Below are positions 61,388 to 64,000 of a DNA stretch of 64,000 nt, in pieces. Every line of letters begins with the position of its first letter. Within the stretch, counting starts at the first letter, position 1. The translations under genes were made by a program, and so were the position numbers. The stretch spans positions 69,603 through 133,602 of the forward strand of contig DATMNC010000088.1 of assembly GCA_035569395.1 (NCBI GenBank). Reading direction: 5' to 3'. The notes beneath the pieces were generated by a model that did no database searches, had not been told where the DNA came from, and saw nothing but the letters and a program-made list of their open reading frames with translations. The DNA is from Thermoanaerobaculia bacterium (GTDB lineage Bacteria > Acidobacteriota > Thermoanaerobaculia > Gp7-AA8).

Positions 61388-62251
61388 TCACGGCGCGACG
61401 ATGCGCAGCCGTTCACGCGCCAGCGAGAACTCCACCGGCGTCTCCGTGATGCGCTCGCCATCGGCGTAGACGTCCATCGGCCGCTCGGACGCAAATGTGA
61501 ATGACGTTCCATGGCCGGTCTCGACAAACGGGCTCTTCACATGCGCTCCGGTGTAGGCCCGGGGCAGGGTCTTCAGGAGTTGGAAACGGGACGTCCGATG
61601 GACGACGCAGAGGTTGAGTCGGCCATCATCGATCAGCGCCTCCGGCACGATGCGGATGCCACCGCCGTATTGCCGCGAGTTGCCGACCGTCGCGAACATG
61701 ATCTCTTCGTTGCGAACACCGTCGATCGTTACGCGGTGCGGCGTAAACCGAGGGAGGACCCGAAGGATGGCGTAGAGATAGACGAGCGAGCCCCGAAGAA
61801 ATTTGACGTTGTCGTTCGCATAGCGCGCGACCTCGGAATCGAACCCGAGTCCAGCGACACCGAGGTAGCGGATCCCGTTGGCAACCGCGACGTCGACTTC
61901 GCGCGCCGTCCCACGCAAGGCCAGCTCGCAAGCGTCGCCGAGATTGCGAGGGAGGCCGAGGACCTTGGCGAAGTCATCGCCGGAACCCTGCGGAACGAGC
62001 GACAGCGTACCGCCGGCCAGATCAAACTCACGGACCGCAAGGTGGAGCGTCCCGTCTCCGCCGGAGACGATGACGCGGTCATAGCCGCCTCGCGACGCCT
62101 CGGCTGCCGCCCGCGTCAGATCCGCCGGACTACTGCTGGCGTGCGCATCGACGTCGGCCCCAAGCGCGCGCAGATGCCGCTCCGCCTCGGCATGATGCCG
62201 CGACGCGCGCCCCCGCCCCGCGGCGGGGTTGTAGATGAATTTGACTCTCAC
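61388..62251 (-). CDS. Diacylglycerol kinase catalytic-domain family lipid kinase (YegS/DagK-like)
   Basis: VIVSGGDGTL motif. Confidence 0.8.
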   Translation of the reverse strand: MRVKFIYNPAAGRGRASRHHAEAERHLRALGADVDAHASSSPADLTRAAAEASRGGYDRVIVSGGDGTLHLAVREFDLAGGTLSLVPQGSGDDFAKVLGLPRNLGDACELALRGTAREVDVAVANGIRYLGVAGLGFDSEVARYANDNVKFLRGSLVYLYAILRVLPRFTPHRVTIDGVRNEEIMFATVGNSRQYGGGIRIVPEALIDDGRLNLCVVHRTSRFQLLKTLPRAYTGAHVKSPFVETGHGTSFTFASERPMDVYADGERITETPVEFSLARERLRIVAP

Positions 62252-62367
62252 GGATAGGCGTCAGTGTAGCCAATTCTGCTGGGTACGGATTAACGGAACA
62301 CCGAGGTATCCTCGGGAACGGACGCAGTTCAGACCGCGCGGCGAGGTACGCGCACCAGATATTCAGC

Positions 62368-63177
62368 ATGAGCAAACCGAAAGATCCTGTTGATGAGGAT
62401 GACGACATTCTGCCCGAGTACGACTTCAGCAACGGCGTTCGTGGCAAGTACTACAAGCCTGGAAGATCTCCAATCCGGGTGACGATCGAGAACGATGTAG
62501 CTCGCTACTACTCGTCGCCAGAGCTCGTCAATGCTGCCCTCCGCGAGCTGATCACCGAAGGCCGCGCGCCGGCCCGCTCGGCCCACGACGCGACGCTGCG
62601 GATTTCGTGGGATCCCGTCAAGGCGGTGGAGAACTTCAAGAAACACGGCGTATCTTTTGACGAGGCGCGAGAGATATTCAAGGACCCGTTCCGGGCGACC
62701 GAGGACGATGTCACCCACTCAGACCACGAAGATCGATACATCAGTTTCGGCTCGACCGCGTCTGGCCGGGTGTTGTTTGTTTGCTACACGTTGCGAGATG
62801 TGGGCGTGCATCTGATCAGCGCACGTCTGGCAACAAGGTCTGAAAGGAGATCGTACATGGACGAAGATCAGATGATTTATGACGAGCCGATCGAACGCGT
62901 CGATGACGAAGCCAAGCACTTCGATTGGAGTAAAGCCGTGCGCGGTCTCCACTACATTCCGTGGGTGAAAGGCACGGCAATTCTGGACGAGGACGTCTAC
63001 AGCATCTTCCGCACATCGGAAGAGGTGAACAACGCGCTTCGGTTGCTCATACAAGAAGGCCGGATTCCGCACTTTCCTCTCCAACGAGCAGAGGGACGCC
63101 AGACAAAAGACGTCAAGGAAGAATTAGCGTCCCCTCCCGCCCGGCCAGCGCGTCGCGGAGGTGCTCGACGTCGGTGA
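62368..63177 (+). CDS. Single-polypeptide fusion: BrnA-like (DUF4415) domain, then BrnT-family (DUF497) toxin domain, then a second BrnA-like domain
   Basis: aa about 15-65: EYDFSNGVRGKYY...VTIENDVARYY...VNAALRELI. aa about 75-170: WDPVKAVENFKKHGVSFDEAREIFKDP...RYISFG...RVLFVCYTLR...HLISARLATRSERRSY. aa about 180-250: HFDWSKAVRGLHY...AILDEDVYSIFRT...VNNALRLLI. Confidence 0.6.
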   Translation: MSKPKDPVDEDDDILPEYDFSNGVRGKYYKPGRSPIRVTIENDVARYYSSPELVNAALRELITEGRAPARSAHDATLRISWDPVKAVENFKKHGVSFDEAREIFKDPFRATEDDVTHSDHEDRYISFGSTASGRVLFVCYTLRDVGVHLISARLATRSERRSYMDEDQMIYDEPIERVDDEAKHFDWSKAVRGLHYIPWVKGTAILDEDVYSIFRTSEEVNNALRLLIQEGRIPHFPLQRAEGRQTKDVKEELASPPARPARRGGARRR

Positions 63178-64000
63178 TCAGAACCTGCTTGCCGCCGCGG
63201 GTGACGAACTGGATGGCGGCTTCGATCTTCGGGCCCATCGATCCGGCGGGAAACTGTCCCTCGGCCAGATGACGCTGCGCCTCGGCGACGGTGAGGCGGT
63301 CGACCGTTCTCTGTGACGGTTTCTCGAAATCAAGGGCCACCTTCGCTACCCCCGTGAGGACGACATACAGCTCGGCCTTCAGTTCCGAGGCCAGGAGCGA
63401 CGATGAGAAGTCCTTGTCGATTACCGCTTCGACCCCTCGCCACTGGCTGTCGCGGCCGCGGACGACCGGGATGCCGCCACCGCCCGCGGCGATCACCACC
63501 GCGGCGCTTTCGAGCATGTGCACGATCGTCTCGATGTTCAGGATGCGCAGAGGGCGCGGCGAGGGAACGACATGGCGCCATCCGCGTCCCGCATCCTCGC
63601 GCATCGTCCACCCGAGGTCGCGCTCGAGCGCCTCGGCGCGATAGCGGGTGAAAAACGGGCCGATCGGTTTGGTCGGCCGCTTGAACGCGGGATCGGCTGG
63701 ATCGACCTCCACCTCCGTCAGAATCGTAGCAACGTCGCCGCCGATGCCGATGCTGTCGAGCCGGTTGCGAATGGCCTGTTGCAGCAAAAAGCCCATCGAC
63801 CCCTCAGTCTGCGCCACGCAGACGTCGAGCGACTGCGGCGGGATCTTCGTCGACGCTTCTTCCGCCTGCACCAGGATGTTGCCAACCTGTGGCCCGTTGC
63901 CGTGGACAACGATCAGTTTGTAGCCGTGGCGGACGATCTCGGCCAGCCAGCGCGCGGCCTGCCTGGCGCGGGCAATCTGTTCTTCCTGCGTACCGCGGTC
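63113..64000 (-). CDS. arcC: Carbamate kinase (C-terminal about 295 aa; N-terminus beyond the window end)
   Basis: Manual translation of 64000-63872 continues the ORF (...IVRHGYKLIVVHGNGPQVGN). HGNGPQVG is the carbamate kinase signature. Confidence 0.8.
   Translation of the reverse strand, partial: DRGTQEEQIARARQAARWLAEIVRHGYKLIVVHGNGPQVGNILVQAEEASTKIPPQSLDVCVAQTEGSMGFLLQQAIRNRLDSIGIGGDVATILTEVEVDPADPAFKRPTKPIGPFFTRYRAEALERDLGWTMREDAGRGWRHVVPSPRPLRILNIETIVHMLESAAVVIAAGGGGIPVVRGRDSQWRGVEAVIDKDFSSSLLASELKAELYVVLTGVAKVALDFEKPSQRTVDRLTVAEAQRHLAEGQFPAGSMGPKIEAAIQFVTRGGKQVLITDVEHLRDALAGREGTLILP

What the first reader, a model, noticed from the sequence alone, without database searches (positions are those of the whole stretch)
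62368..63177. Tripartite BrnA-like / BrnT toxin / BrnA-like fusion in one 269-aa ORF
The central approximately 95 aa match the BrnT (DUF497) ribonuclease toxin family. The key motif is WDP-K-N-KHGVSF-EA-FKDP ... RYISFG ... HLISAR. The toxin domain is flanked on both sides by segments fitting the BrnA/DUF4415 antitoxin pattern: DFS-A-RGKY, then V/I-L-D-DV, then N-ALR-LI. Canonical brnT-brnA loci are two separate genes with the toxin first. Here the frame is continuous with no internal stop, and the antitoxin-like module is duplicated around the toxin. This could be a self-neutralised single-chain toxin-antitoxin, an intramolecular-inhibition toxin, or a toxin activated by proteolysis. The Lon/ClpXP genes are 1-5 kb upstream, which may be coincidence. 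The 3' end overlaps the convergent carbamate kinase gene by about 64 bp, and the ORF's last about 30 aa are low-complexity (ASPPARPARRGGARRR), so the true stop or frame at the 3' end needs checking.
Basis: partly seen in the sequence, partly recalled or inferred. Interest (0 to 1): 0.7.

Follow-up and report, generated by a model that had tools for sequence, protein, structure and literature searches.

The report
Antitoxin–BrnT toxin–antitoxin single-gene fusion
This is a real, conserved gene in an uncultured Acidobacteriota lineage that joins a BrnT-type RNase toxin to an antitoxin module on each side; two-part BrnT-antitoxin fusions are already published, so the three-part layout is a new variant of a known kind.

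Summary
The 269-aa ORF (62368-63177, +) exists as described. Residues 78-163 are a confident BrnT/DUF497 domain by Pfam and by fold, and four of its five mapped RNase residues are kept. Both flanks belong to the antitoxin type encoded just downstream of brnT in many phyla. They are only remote homologues of Pfam BrnA, and the Pfam models themselves do not hit.

The fusion is not an artefact. About 20 orthologues (61-87% identity) from independent assemblies share the layout at one syntenic locus, and all three modules show dN/dS of 0.06-0.27.

The N-module is not a copy of the C-module. It resembles the antitoxin module of a paralogous fused gene (T1-A1) found at this locus in related lineages. 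The locus also occurs as T1-A1, T2-A2, [A1][T2-A2], A1-A2 and [T1-A1][ΔT2-A2].

The last 33 aa are a lineage-specific frameshift and read-through into antisense arcC. They are not selected in their own frame.

Two more conserved features are a 15-nt palindrome upstream (candidate operator) and an internal Shine-Dalgarno plus ATG at Met164.

Cis-neutralisation with RHH-mediated autorepression is inferred, not shown.

The parts
62301..62315 (+). Perfect 15-nt palindrome CCGAGGTATCCTCGG (6-bp arms, 3-nt centre). Candidate operator for the RHH-type modules, or a 5'-leader RNA hairpin.
   Evidence: Exact or within 1 nt in every related locus, whichever gene comes first and whichever gene lies upstream. 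Unique in the window. Lies 5-8 nt before the start codon in toxin-first forms and 53-55 nt before it in tripartite forms.
62368..62583 (+). N-module A1 (aa 1-72): acidic N-terminus, EYDFSNGVRGKYY motif, then a strand-helix-helix (RHH-like) unit ending LITEGRAP.
   Evidence: hhalign to free-standing brnT-partner antitoxins: 98.7%, E=3.5e-16. 57-66% identical to the C-terminal module of the paralogous fusions P0039, P0040 and P0043-45. dN/dS 0.07-0.23. A separate 77-aa gene in L011. AF2: E36-39, H42-45, H51-63.
62584..62598 (+). Variable linker (aa 73-77). It replaces the former A1 stop codon, the short intergenic gap and the T2 start codon.
   Evidence: In L011 a TAG plus 11 nt and an ATG sit here. 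Many orthologues keep V or M at the old BrnT start position. pLDDT below 50.
62599..62856 (+). BrnT (DUF497) RNase toxin domain T2 (aa 78-163).
   Evidence: PF04365 E=1e-24 to 1e-25. Foldseek 7vd7_A E=3.9e-8 (TMt 0.82) and 3u97 E=3e-5. D82, K85, R123 and E159 align with B. abortus D6, K9, R41 and E78 (PMC5086665). dN/dS 0.08-0.27.
62842..62859 (+). Internal Shine-Dalgarno GAAAGGAG (62842-62849), 7 nt spacer, then ATG (62857-62859, Met164). This is the ancestral antitoxin initiation signal, now in frame.
   Evidence: Both Arg codons here are the rare AGG and AGA (7.9% of Arg codons in the window). The same signal precedes the antitoxin ATG in two-gene loci. Conserved in all tripartite loci examined, plus L011 and L015. 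Met follows the BrnT end in 73 of 78 fused relatives.
62857..63075 (+). C-module A2 (aa 164-236): conserved acidic linker MDEDQMIYDEP, HFDWSKAVRGLHY motif, and an RHH-like unit ending LIQEGRIPHF.
   Evidence: hhalign to free-standing antitoxins: 97.6%, E=3e-12. dN/dS 0.06-0.25. AF2: E203-206, H208-211, H217-229.
63076..63177 (+). Non-conserved tail (aa 237-269 plus stop): a +1 frameshift after IPHF, then read-through into the antisense of arcC.
   Evidence: The +1 frame reads LSNEQRDARQKTSRKN*, parallel to LSDEEWYAKHKKSRQD* in L011, L013 and L007. The ancestral TAG (63125-63127) is the reverse complement of an arcC Leu codon. Tail dN/dS above 2 with dS near 0. GC3 0.44 against 0.69 in the modules.
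63113..63871 (-). 3' part of the convergent carbamate kinase gene (arcC). It overlaps the ORF by 65 bp (63113-63177).
   Evidence: ORF and translation. AA_kinase followed by ADI in all syntenic loci.

Best explanation
The ORF is a genuine single-gene derivative of a BrnT-type (DUF497) type II toxin-antitoxin locus, with the layout A1-T2-A2.

Shown:
- T2 is a BrnT RNase domain that keeps four of the five mapped catalytic residues.
- A2 is its own downstream antitoxin, fused in frame exactly at the ancestral antitoxin start codon. That junction defines a widespread 'E..Y-M' fused subfamily.
- A1 is an orphan antitoxin module left over from a second, paralogous fused gene (T1-A1) that once stood in tandem at this locus. 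It became joined to T2 when its stop codon was lost.
- All three modules are under purifying selection, and the gene is inherited vertically at a fixed chromosomal site.
- The last 33 residues are an unselected frameshift and read-through.

Inferred:
- The acidic + EYDFS/VRG segments of A1 and A2 hold the RNase inactive in cis. This fixes a 2-antitoxin : 1-toxin ratio, which is the non-toxic, repressing stoichiometry of classical type II systems.
- The two strand-helix-helix units pair like an RHH dimer, within one chain or between chains, and bind the conserved 15-bp palindrome to repress the gene's own transcription.
- The conserved internal SD + ATG lets extra free A2 be made from the same mRNA.
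- The toxin is released when the linkers or antitoxin modules are degraded or displaced.
For: Architecture and reality:
- ORF confirmed; BrnT by Pfam and by fold.
- About 20 orthologues of 242-278 aa, 61-87% identical, from many independent contigs.
- dN/dS 0.06-0.27 in each module, with dS around 1 or more.
- The exact protein is in NCBI as HXA19469.1, 'BrnT family toxin', from a Thermoanaerobaculia MAG.

Antitoxin identity:
- Free-standing relatives lie directly downstream of, and overlap, brnT in cyanobacteria, Chloroflexota, Planctomycetota and other phyla.
- hhalign E=3.5e-16 and 3e-12 to these relatives.
- Those relatives match verified PF14384/PF12441 BrnA at 93% probability, E=2.5e-7.

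Origin:
- The N-module is closest to the A module of the P0039/P0040/P0043-45 fusions.
- L109 has T1-A1 alone between the DAGK and arcC genes. L108 has [T1-A1][truncated T2-A2]. L011 has [A1][T2-A2]. L009 and L015 have T2-A2. L013 has A1-A2.

Catalytic residues: with PMC5086665.

Internal initiation.

Operator.

Two RHH units per chain recur in relatives: T-A-RHH (P0071, P0076), T-RHH-A (P0094), and A+RHH without toxin (P0136, P0205). In the AF2 model of the toxin-less A1-A2 protein P0038, the only two strands (37-40 and 115-118) can only pair with each other.

Tail.
Against: - No functional data exist: toxicity, neutralisation, DNA binding and internal initiation are all untested.
- AF2 confidence for the flanking modules is modest (pLDDT 58-76) and poor for P0038 (mean 50). 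Coordinates could not be inspected, so strand pairing in the tripartite protein itself is unverified.
- Pfam BrnA and RHH models do not reach significance on the modules, and no solved antitoxin matched the module profile.
- The palindrome could be an RNA hairpin rather than an operator. It is almost invariant, so there is no covariation signal either way.
- The P0028-like bipartite lineage has lost the internal SD, so internal initiation is not universal.
- No sigma-70 consensus promoter was found.
- Vertical inheritance at a fixed locus is atypical for a selfish TA module.
Confidence: 0.6

Rival explanations
1. It is an artefact or a decaying pseudogene: an ordinary multi-gene brnTA locus whose stop codons were lost through sequencing or assembly error or recent mutation.
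For: The 3' end really is frameshifted relative to relatives. The locus shows deletions, a split form and tandem duplications. Some published BrnT-BrnA fusions look frameshift-derived.
Against: The same continuous frame occurs in about 20 orthologues from independent samples and assemblers. dN/dS is 0.06-0.27 in all three modules although dS is around 1 or more. The Y-M junction is shared by 73 of 78 fused relatives spread over many 50%-identity clusters.
Confidence: 0.02
2. It is a domesticated regulator rather than a TA module. The gene would be a vertically inherited RNase and/or RHH transcription factor serving host physiology, for example control of the adjacent arginine deiminase/carbamate kinase genes or the lipid kinase gene. 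The flanking modules would act as DNA-binding and regulatory domains, not as antidotes.
For: Fixed syntenic position next to arcC-ADI across a clade spanning 61-87% identity. Purifying selection. A toxin-less A1-A2 form persists with the palindrome. The palindrome sits in the divergent promoter region shared with the DAGK gene. No PADLOC defence-system hit.
Against: Each module type is otherwise found in classic brnT-antitoxin pairs. Catalytic residues are kept. Presence or absence of T1, T2 and A1 varies between close lineages, as in TA loci. GC3 is lower than in neighbouring genes.
Confidence: 0.2
3. It works as an ordinary two-component TA. The main antidote is free A2 translated from the internal SD/ATG at Met164. 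The covalent fusion is a tolerated by-product, and A1 is a passenger orphan antitoxin.
For: SD GAAAGGAG + ATG is conserved through rare AGG/AGA codons and is identical to the initiation signal of two-gene loci. The junction Met is nearly invariant in fused relatives. L096 carries a free C-module ORF starting exactly at that Met.
Against: A1 is under purifying selection as strong as that on T2 and A2. The fused state has been stable across many divergent clusters. The P0028-like lineage lost the SD but keeps the fusion.
Confidence: 0.13
4. It is a fused-TA anti-phage sensor. The flanking modules would autoinhibit the RNase until a phage protein binds them, as reported for other fused toxin-antitoxin defence proteins.
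For: Fused TA genes are proposed to act in phage defence (PMC11980606). The layout is an autoinhibited single chain.
Against: No PADLOC hit. The gene sits among housekeeping genes rather than in a defence island, and its synteny is conserved. No phage or mobile-element genes are nearby in any locus examined.
Confidence: 0.05

Closest known systems
[quoted passage not shown] 2012; PDB 3U97) and the Salmonella Typhimurium toxin-antitoxin complex (PDB 7VD7)
   Same: The toxin domain is a BrnT/DUF497 fold: Pfam 86.8 bits; Foldseek E=3.9e-8 and 3e-5. The equivalents of D6, K9, R41 and E78 are kept. The antitoxin follows the toxin and is an RHH-type protein sharing the EYDFS...strand-helix region.
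   Different: Here there is one polypeptide instead of two genes, and a second antitoxin module sits upstream of the toxin. The modules fail the PF14384 and PF12441 thresholds. The Glu7 equivalent is Pro. The canonical complex is a 2:2 tetramer (PMC5086665), whereas this chain fixes 2 antitoxin modules to 1 toxin.
Bipartite BrnT-BrnA gene fusions (mBio 2025, PMC11980606: 28 prokaryotic and 4 eukaryotic, 141-207 aa)
   Same: Toxin-then-antitoxin in a single ORF with an RHH-type C-terminal domain. The T2-A2 part of this gene is that architecture, and bipartite relatives occupy the same locus.
   Different: None of the listed fusions is tripartite or carries an N-terminal antitoxin module. The subfamily here has the in-frame Y-M junction and the 'EGRxP' module type, and it is vertically conserved. 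Only one 50%-identity cluster among 1.84 billion representatives covers the full three-part profile.
Other fused single-chain toxin-antitoxins: CapRel(SJ46) and EzeT (recalled from memory, not tested here)
   Same: A toxin domain and a cis-acting antitoxin domain sit in one polypeptide, and autoinhibition is the presumed default state.
   Different: The toxin families are unrelated (a RelA/SpoT-like pyrophosphokinase and a zeta kinase). Each has one antitoxin domain, not two, and neither has RHH DNA-binding modules.
Antitoxin2-toxin repressing complexes of conditional cooperativity (Phd/Doc, CcdAB; PMC8138530)
   Same: A toxin flanked or bridged by two antitoxin units is the non-toxic, operator-binding state.
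   Different: There the stoichiometry is reached non-covalently and can shift with the T:A ratio. Here it would be fixed by the peptide chain. This is analogy only.
Single-chain tandem RHH proteins such as F-plasmid TraY (recalled from memory)
   Same: Two strand-helix-helix repeats in one polypeptide could form a pseudo-dimeric RHH DNA-binding unit.
   Different: The only structural hit of the P0038 model was a non-significant match to a chain of the F relaxosome (9f0y_E, E=7.3, probability 0.06), which is not evidence. In the window protein the repeats are separated by an inserted RNase domain.

Membership tests
BrnT toxin (Pfam PF04365 / DUF497 / COG2929) | Sequence match to the family HMM above the curated threshold | tested here: met
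   86.8 bits (whole protein) and 90.4 bits (domain alone) against a cutoff of 34.5; aa 81-159 cover profile positions 1-77 of 77.
BrnT toxin (Pfam PF04365 / DUF497 / COG2929) | BrnT fold: four-stranded antiparallel sheet packed on short helices | tested here: met
   AF2 pLDDT 79-96 over aa 78-160. Foldseek 7vd7_A E=3.9e-8, TMt 0.82, rmsd 1.8; 3u97 E=3.1e-5, TMt 0.78.
BrnT toxin (Pfam PF04365 / DUF497 / COG2929) | Residues needed for RNase activity in B. abortus BrnT (Asp6, Glu7, Lys9, Arg41, Glu78) | tested here: met
   The profile alignment to 3u97 puts D82, K85, R123 and E159 at D6, K9, R41 and E78. The Glu7 position is Pro83, and it is Ala in the solved Salmonella toxin, so it is not conserved across the family (residue list from PMC5086665). 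Four of five are kept.
BrnT toxin (Pfam PF04365 / DUF497 / COG2929) | Ribonuclease activity and growth inhibition | not testable with these tools
   Needs expression and in vitro RNase assays.
BrnA antitoxin (Pfam PF14384 / DUF4415; PF12441 CopG_antitoxin; COG3514/COG5304) | Sequence match to the family HMM above the curated threshold | tested here: not met
   No hit for either window module at E<=1. Free-standing relatives reach only E=0.14-0.16, 12.8 bits against a cutoff of 26.1. Control antitoxins (alignment A4) hit both models, 7 of 7 members.
BrnA antitoxin (Pfam PF14384 / DUF4415; PF12441 CopG_antitoxin; COG3514/COG5304) | Remote homology to verified BrnA by profile-profile comparison | tested here: met
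   Module-type profile A3 against verified BrnA profile A4: hhalign probability 93.4%, E=2.5e-7 over 43 columns (EYDFS motif, strand, first helix). Window N- and C-modules against A3: E=3.5e-16 and 3.1e-12.
BrnA antitoxin (Pfam PF14384 / DUF4415; PF12441 CopG_antitoxin; COG3514/COG5304) | Encoded immediately downstream of (or overlapping) brnT | tested here: met
   Free-standing relatives of the modules overlap or abut the 3' end of brnT in dozens of genomes from many phyla. The C-module begins at that antitoxin's start codon. The N-module lies upstream of the toxin, which is not the canonical position.
BrnA antitoxin (Pfam PF14384 / DUF4415; PF12441 CopG_antitoxin; COG3514/COG5304) | C-terminal ribbon-helix-helix fold | tested here: inconclusive
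   AF2 predicts strand-helix-helix in both modules, but at pLDDT 58-76. There is a weak VapB_antitoxin match (E=0.0015, below cutoff). No solved RHH protein was found by profile or fold search.
BrnA antitoxin (Pfam PF14384 / DUF4415; PF12441 CopG_antitoxin; COG3514/COG5304) | Neutralises BrnT and represses its own promoter | not testable with these tools
   Only a conserved palindrome upstream is seen.
Fused (single-gene) type II toxin-antitoxin | Toxin and antitoxin domains in one uninterrupted ORF that is conserved among homologues | tested here: met
Fused (single-gene) type II toxin-antitoxin | Antitoxin domain inhibits the toxin domain in cis | not testable with these tools
   The AF2 monomer gives low confidence for the module-toxin contacts.
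Tandem/single-chain RHH DNA-binding proteins | Two homologous strand-helix-helix repeats in one chain | tested here: met
   Internal repeat E=2e-12. The predicted secondary structure repeats. Relatives have two units in other orders.
Tandem/single-chain RHH DNA-binding proteins | The two strands pair to form the DNA-reading ribbon | tested here: inconclusive
   In the P0038 model the only two strands (37-40, 115-118) can only pair with each other, but mean pLDDT is 50 and pTM 0.42. Coordinates of the tripartite model could not be inspected.

The most novel reading that the evidence does not exclude
A vertically inherited, domesticated single-chain 'caged RNase'. Two non-identical RHH half-domains of different evolutionary origin (A1 from a lost paralogue, A2 cognate) would flank a BrnT toxin. 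They would pair within the molecule into a pseudo-dimeric RHH that both clamps the RNase shut and reads the 15-bp palindrome, so that repression and neutralisation are fixed at 2 antitoxin : 1 toxin. A nested internal start would supply free A2 as a tunable buffer. The natural series at one locus (T1-A1, T2-A2, [A1][T2-A2], A1-T2-A2, A1-A2) would then record how a tandem TA pair collapses into one regulatory protein.
Probability: 0.25. Interest if true: 0.65.

Novelty: new variant of a known kind. Interest (0 to 1): 0.5.

Why it matters
Type II toxin-antitoxin systems are defined by two separate proteins whose ratio controls both toxicity and transcription. Bipartite BrnT-BrnA fusions were catalogued only in 2025, and nobody has tested how they work.

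This locus adds a three-part form in which an orphan antitoxin from a lost paralogue has been kept under selection and joined to the front of a fused toxin-antitoxin. Close relatives carry every intermediate form at the same chromosomal site. That gives a ready-made comparative series for three questions:
- Is a covalently fixed 2:1 antitoxin:toxin ratio self-neutralising and self-repressing?
- Can two RHH half-sites in one chain replace dimerisation?
- Do nested internal starts keep supplying free antitoxin?

The case also gives a practical warning for annotation. The gene is labelled only 'BrnT family toxin', and its last 33 codons are an artefact of overlap with arcC.

Tried and rejected
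- Pfam and NCBIfam on the flanks: no BrnA, DUF4415 or CopG hit. There was only a sub-threshold VapB_antitoxin match, and the NCBIfam hits were noise.
- PDB sequence search with the module profile (A3): it hit only designed helical repeat proteins, which is spurious helix similarity.
- Foldseek of the whole AF2 model: only the BrnT domain matched.
- AF2 and Foldseek of the toxin-less A1-A2 protein P0038: low confidence, and one non-significant hit.
It did supply 80 canonical brnT-antitoxin loci that proved useful.
- Metagenome-contig scan: only 12 loci, about 5 of them new.
- Sigma-70 promoter and terminator scan: nothing. A weak -35 TAGCCA / 16 nt / -10 AAnTAA arrangement seen by eye upstream of the palindrome is unverified.
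- Rfam on the whole window: no hits.
- RNA fold of the leader: z = -1.74, not decisive.
- PADLOC: no hit.
- The Heaton 2012 paper and the paper behind 7VD7 are not held, so BrnA-BrnT contact details could not be checked.
- Rejected idea, recent internal duplication of the antitoxin module: the N-module is closer to the modules of paralogous fusions.
- Rejected idea, functional link to Lon/ClpXP: that neighbourhood is absent in L011 and L108.
- Rejected idea, the Arg-rich tail is a functional RNA-binding or degron tail: its substitution pattern follows the arcC frame.
Full report
**1. Observation**

All quoted motifs are present. Pfam assigns aa 81-159 to BrnT_toxin (PF04365) at E=1.2e-24, 86.8 bits against a cutoff of 34.5. 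The two flanks are related to each other: BLASTP 38% identity over 63 aa, E=2e-12. The convergent carbamate kinase ORF ends at 63113, so the overlap is 65 bp. One claim failed as stated. Neither flank hits BrnA_antitoxin (PF14384) or any other antitoxin model above threshold. The only match is a sub-threshold VapB_antitoxin hit at aa 52-67.

**2. The fusion is real and conserved**

A search of 5.8 billion proteins returned about 20 proteins of 242-278 aa that are 61-87% identical and cover all three parts. It also returned many 165-195 aa proteins that cover BrnT plus the C-module.

The exact window protein is in NCBI as HXA19469.1, 'BrnT family toxin [Thermoanaerobaculia bacterium]', from a MAG.

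The gene sits at one syntenic site in independent assemblies: lon-clpX-clpP-DAGK(YegS-like) on the minus strand, the fusion gene on the plus strand, then arcC-ADI on the minus strand.

Pairwise Nei-Gojobori estimates on seven distinct loci gave:
- N-module: dN/dS 0.07-0.23
- BrnT: dN/dS 0.08-0.27
- C-module: dN/dS 0.06-0.25
- dS mostly around 1 or higher

All three parts are therefore functional coding sequence. A sequencing artefact or a pseudogene is excluded.

**3. What the flanks are**

Eighty brnT loci from GTDB genomes show the ordinary two-gene arrangement. In most of them the gene overlapping the 3' end of brnT encodes a 70-100 aa protein with the pattern: acidic N-terminus, (P)EYDFSGGVRGKY, a strand (NVVVLDPDV), then F.DS.AVN.ALR.L. 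The window modules match this type:
- N-module against that family (alignment A3): hhalign 98.7%, E=3.5e-16
- C-module against A3: 97.6%, E=3.1e-12

A second partner type in the same loci (alignment A4) is verified BrnA, since 7 of 7 members hit both PF14384 and PF12441. A3 against A4 gives hhalign 93.4%, E=2.5e-7 over the EYDFS motif, strand and first helix.

So the flanks are BrnT-partner antitoxin modules and remote homologues of BrnA. They are not members of the Pfam family as currently modelled.

AF2 predicts strand-helix-helix in both modules (E36-39/H42-45/H51-63 and E203-206/H208-211/H217-229) at modest confidence. The BrnT domain is confident and superposes on the Salmonella toxin 7VD7_A and on B. 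abortus BrnT 3U97.

Profile alignment to 3U97 places D82, K85, R123 and E159 at the positions of Asp6, Lys9, Arg41 and Glu78, which are required for RNase activity in Brucella. The Glu7 position is Pro (PMC5086665).

**4. Origin**

The N-module is not a copy of the C-module. It is 57-66% identical to the C-terminal module of a paralogous group of bipartite fusions (P0039, P0040, P0043-45), but only 38% identical to its own C-module.

Those paralogues occur at the same locus, which exists in the following forms:

| Locus | Arrangement |
|---|---|
| L109 | T1-A1 alone, between DAGK and arcC |
| L108 | [T1-A1] followed 8 nt later by an N-terminally truncated T2-A2, then arcC |
| L011 | [A1, a separate 77-aa gene] - TAG + 11 nt - [T2-A2] |
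| L009, L015 | T2-A2 only, start 8 nt after the palindrome |
| L013 | A1-A2 with the toxin deleted |
| L097 | tripartite gene plus a second T2-A2 copy in tandem, with duplicated arcC and DAGK fragments |

The simplest history is a tandem pair of fused genes, [T1-A1][T2-A2], followed by differential loss. The window form arose when T1 was deleted and the A1 stop codon was lost. Many tripartite orthologues still carry V or M at the old T2 start position.

**5. The T2-A2 junction**

In two-gene loci the antitoxin ATG overlaps the Tyr-Glu codons at the end of brnT. It is preceded by an SD built from the conserved Glu-Arg-Arg/Lys codons, for example GAAAGGAGAagctATG.

The window has GAAAGGAG (62842-62849), 7 nt, then ATG (Met164), now in frame. 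The two Arg codons are AGG and AGA, which together make up 7.9% of Arg codons in this window. They are conserved in every tripartite locus examined and in L011 and L015, while a neighbouring Arg codon varies freely. The P0028-like bipartite lineage has lost them.

Met follows the BrnT end in 73 of 78 fused relatives. Glu follows it in 50 of 73 unfused relatives.

I infer that free A2 can still be initiated internally. This is not shown.

**6. The 3' end**

After IPHF (aa 233-236) the window and L001 carry a one-base insertion relative to L011, L013 and L007. In the ancestral frame the window would read LSNEQRDARQKTSRKN*, stopping at TAG 63125-63127, which is the reverse complement of an arcC Leu codon. 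Whether other lineages stop there depends on arcC's codon choice at that position.

Residues 248-269 show dN/dS above 2 with dS near 0 and GC3 of 0.44. Their conservation therefore reflects the arcC frame, not their own. The functional protein is most likely aa 1-236.

**7. Cis element**

A perfect 15-nt palindrome, CCGAGGTATCCTCGG (62301-62315), is unique in the window. It is exact or within 1 nt in every related locus, including loci with different upstream genes and different first modules. It lies 5-8 nt before the start codon in toxin-first forms and 53-55 nt before it in tripartite forms.

It is a good candidate operator for RHH modules. An RNA hairpin reading cannot be excluded. No consensus promoter or Rfam family was found.

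**8. Distribution and literature**

Against 1.84 billion 50%-identity representatives, only one cluster (P0006) covers the whole three-part profile. Dozens of clusters are bipartite T-A fusions of this type.

Other multi-module relatives exist:
- T-A-RHH: P0071, P0076
- T-RHH-A: P0094
- T-A-T-A: P0070
- A+RHH without toxin: P0136, P0205

Two strand-helix-helix units per chain is therefore a recurring solution.

In the AF2 model of the toxin-less A1-A2 protein P0038, the only two strands can only pair with each other, but confidence is low.

The 2025 mBio survey (PMC11980606) lists 28 prokaryotic and 4 eukaryotic BrnT-BrnA fusions. All are bipartite, 141-207 aa, and none has an N-terminal antitoxin module. 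Literature searches for an antitoxin-toxin-antitoxin fusion found only the non-covalent A-T-A chains of conditional cooperativity.

**9. Mechanism and verdict**

Shown: the A1-T2-A2 architecture, its conservation, its selection, its origin, and the nature of the tail.

Inferred:
- cis-neutralisation of an active RNase by two antitoxin segments (a fixed 2:1 ratio)
- pairing of the two RHH-like units to bind the palindrome and repress the gene's own transcription
- a nested start that supplies free A2
- release of the toxin by degradation or displacement of the modules

The Lon/ClpXP proximity is shared synteny and is absent in L011 and L108. PADLOC gives no defence-system hit.

This is a new variant of a known kind, namely fused BrnT-BrnA. 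It is moderately interesting, mainly because the natural series of intermediates at one locus makes the evolution and logic of single-chain TA modules directly testable.

Noticed in passing
L097:1201-2702 (Ga0247668_1000045): A tandem arrangement: the tripartite gene, then about 120 bp of duplicated arcC 3' end, about 20 bp of duplicated DAGK 5' end, a second copy of the promoter region and palindrome, then a bipartite T2-A2 gene and the full arcC. The arcC-to-DAGK junction is novel, which suggests a real tandem duplication rather than a strain-merge misassembly.
   Followed up: partly
L096:1127-1447: Downstream of a tripartite gene and an arcC fragment lies a free C-module ORF (106 aa). It starts exactly at the codon equivalent to the internal Met164. 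It appears to be a deletion derivative of a second gene copy.
   Followed up: partly
L108:3001-3823: A paralogous fused gene T1-A1 (P0043, 167 aa) is followed 8 nt later by an N-terminally truncated T2-A2, then convergent arcC. This is the predicted tandem ancestor of the tripartite form, here with T2 decaying instead of T1.
   Followed up: yes
proteins P0070, P0071, P0076, P0094, P0136, P0205, P0132, P0144: Other multi-module relatives: T-A-T-A in one 374-aa chain; T-A-RHH and T-RHH-A (211-229 aa); A+RHH without toxin; and BrnT proteins with a short N-terminal 'EYDL' antitoxin-like motif but no RHH unit.
   Followed up: partly
window 63113-63177 and the homologous sites in L001-L015: Whether the fusion gene stops near arcC or reads 45-65 bp into it depends on which codon arcC uses for the Leu/Val four residues before its own stop. 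CTA gives TAG on the opposite strand. This is a clear case of one gene's synonymous choice setting the length of its convergent neighbour.
   Followed up: yes
window 62252-62300: The stretch between the DAGK start (GTG at 62249-62251, minus strand) and the palindrome contains the conserved block CAGTGTAGCCAAT and an A/T-rich hexamer (ATTAAC / AATTAA) 7-8 nt before the palindrome. It may be a divergent promoter. The consensus scan did not call it.
   Followed up: partly
window 62368-63075 versus its neighbours: The fusion gene has lower GC (57%) and GC3 (0.66-0.69) than clpP, DAGK and arcC (GC3 0.78-0.86), even though it is an old resident of the locus.
   Followed up: no
window 1-64000: No Rfam family reaches its gathering score anywhere in the 64-kb window. 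There is also no second BrnT or antitoxin-module copy elsewhere in the window (tblastn).
   Followed up: yes
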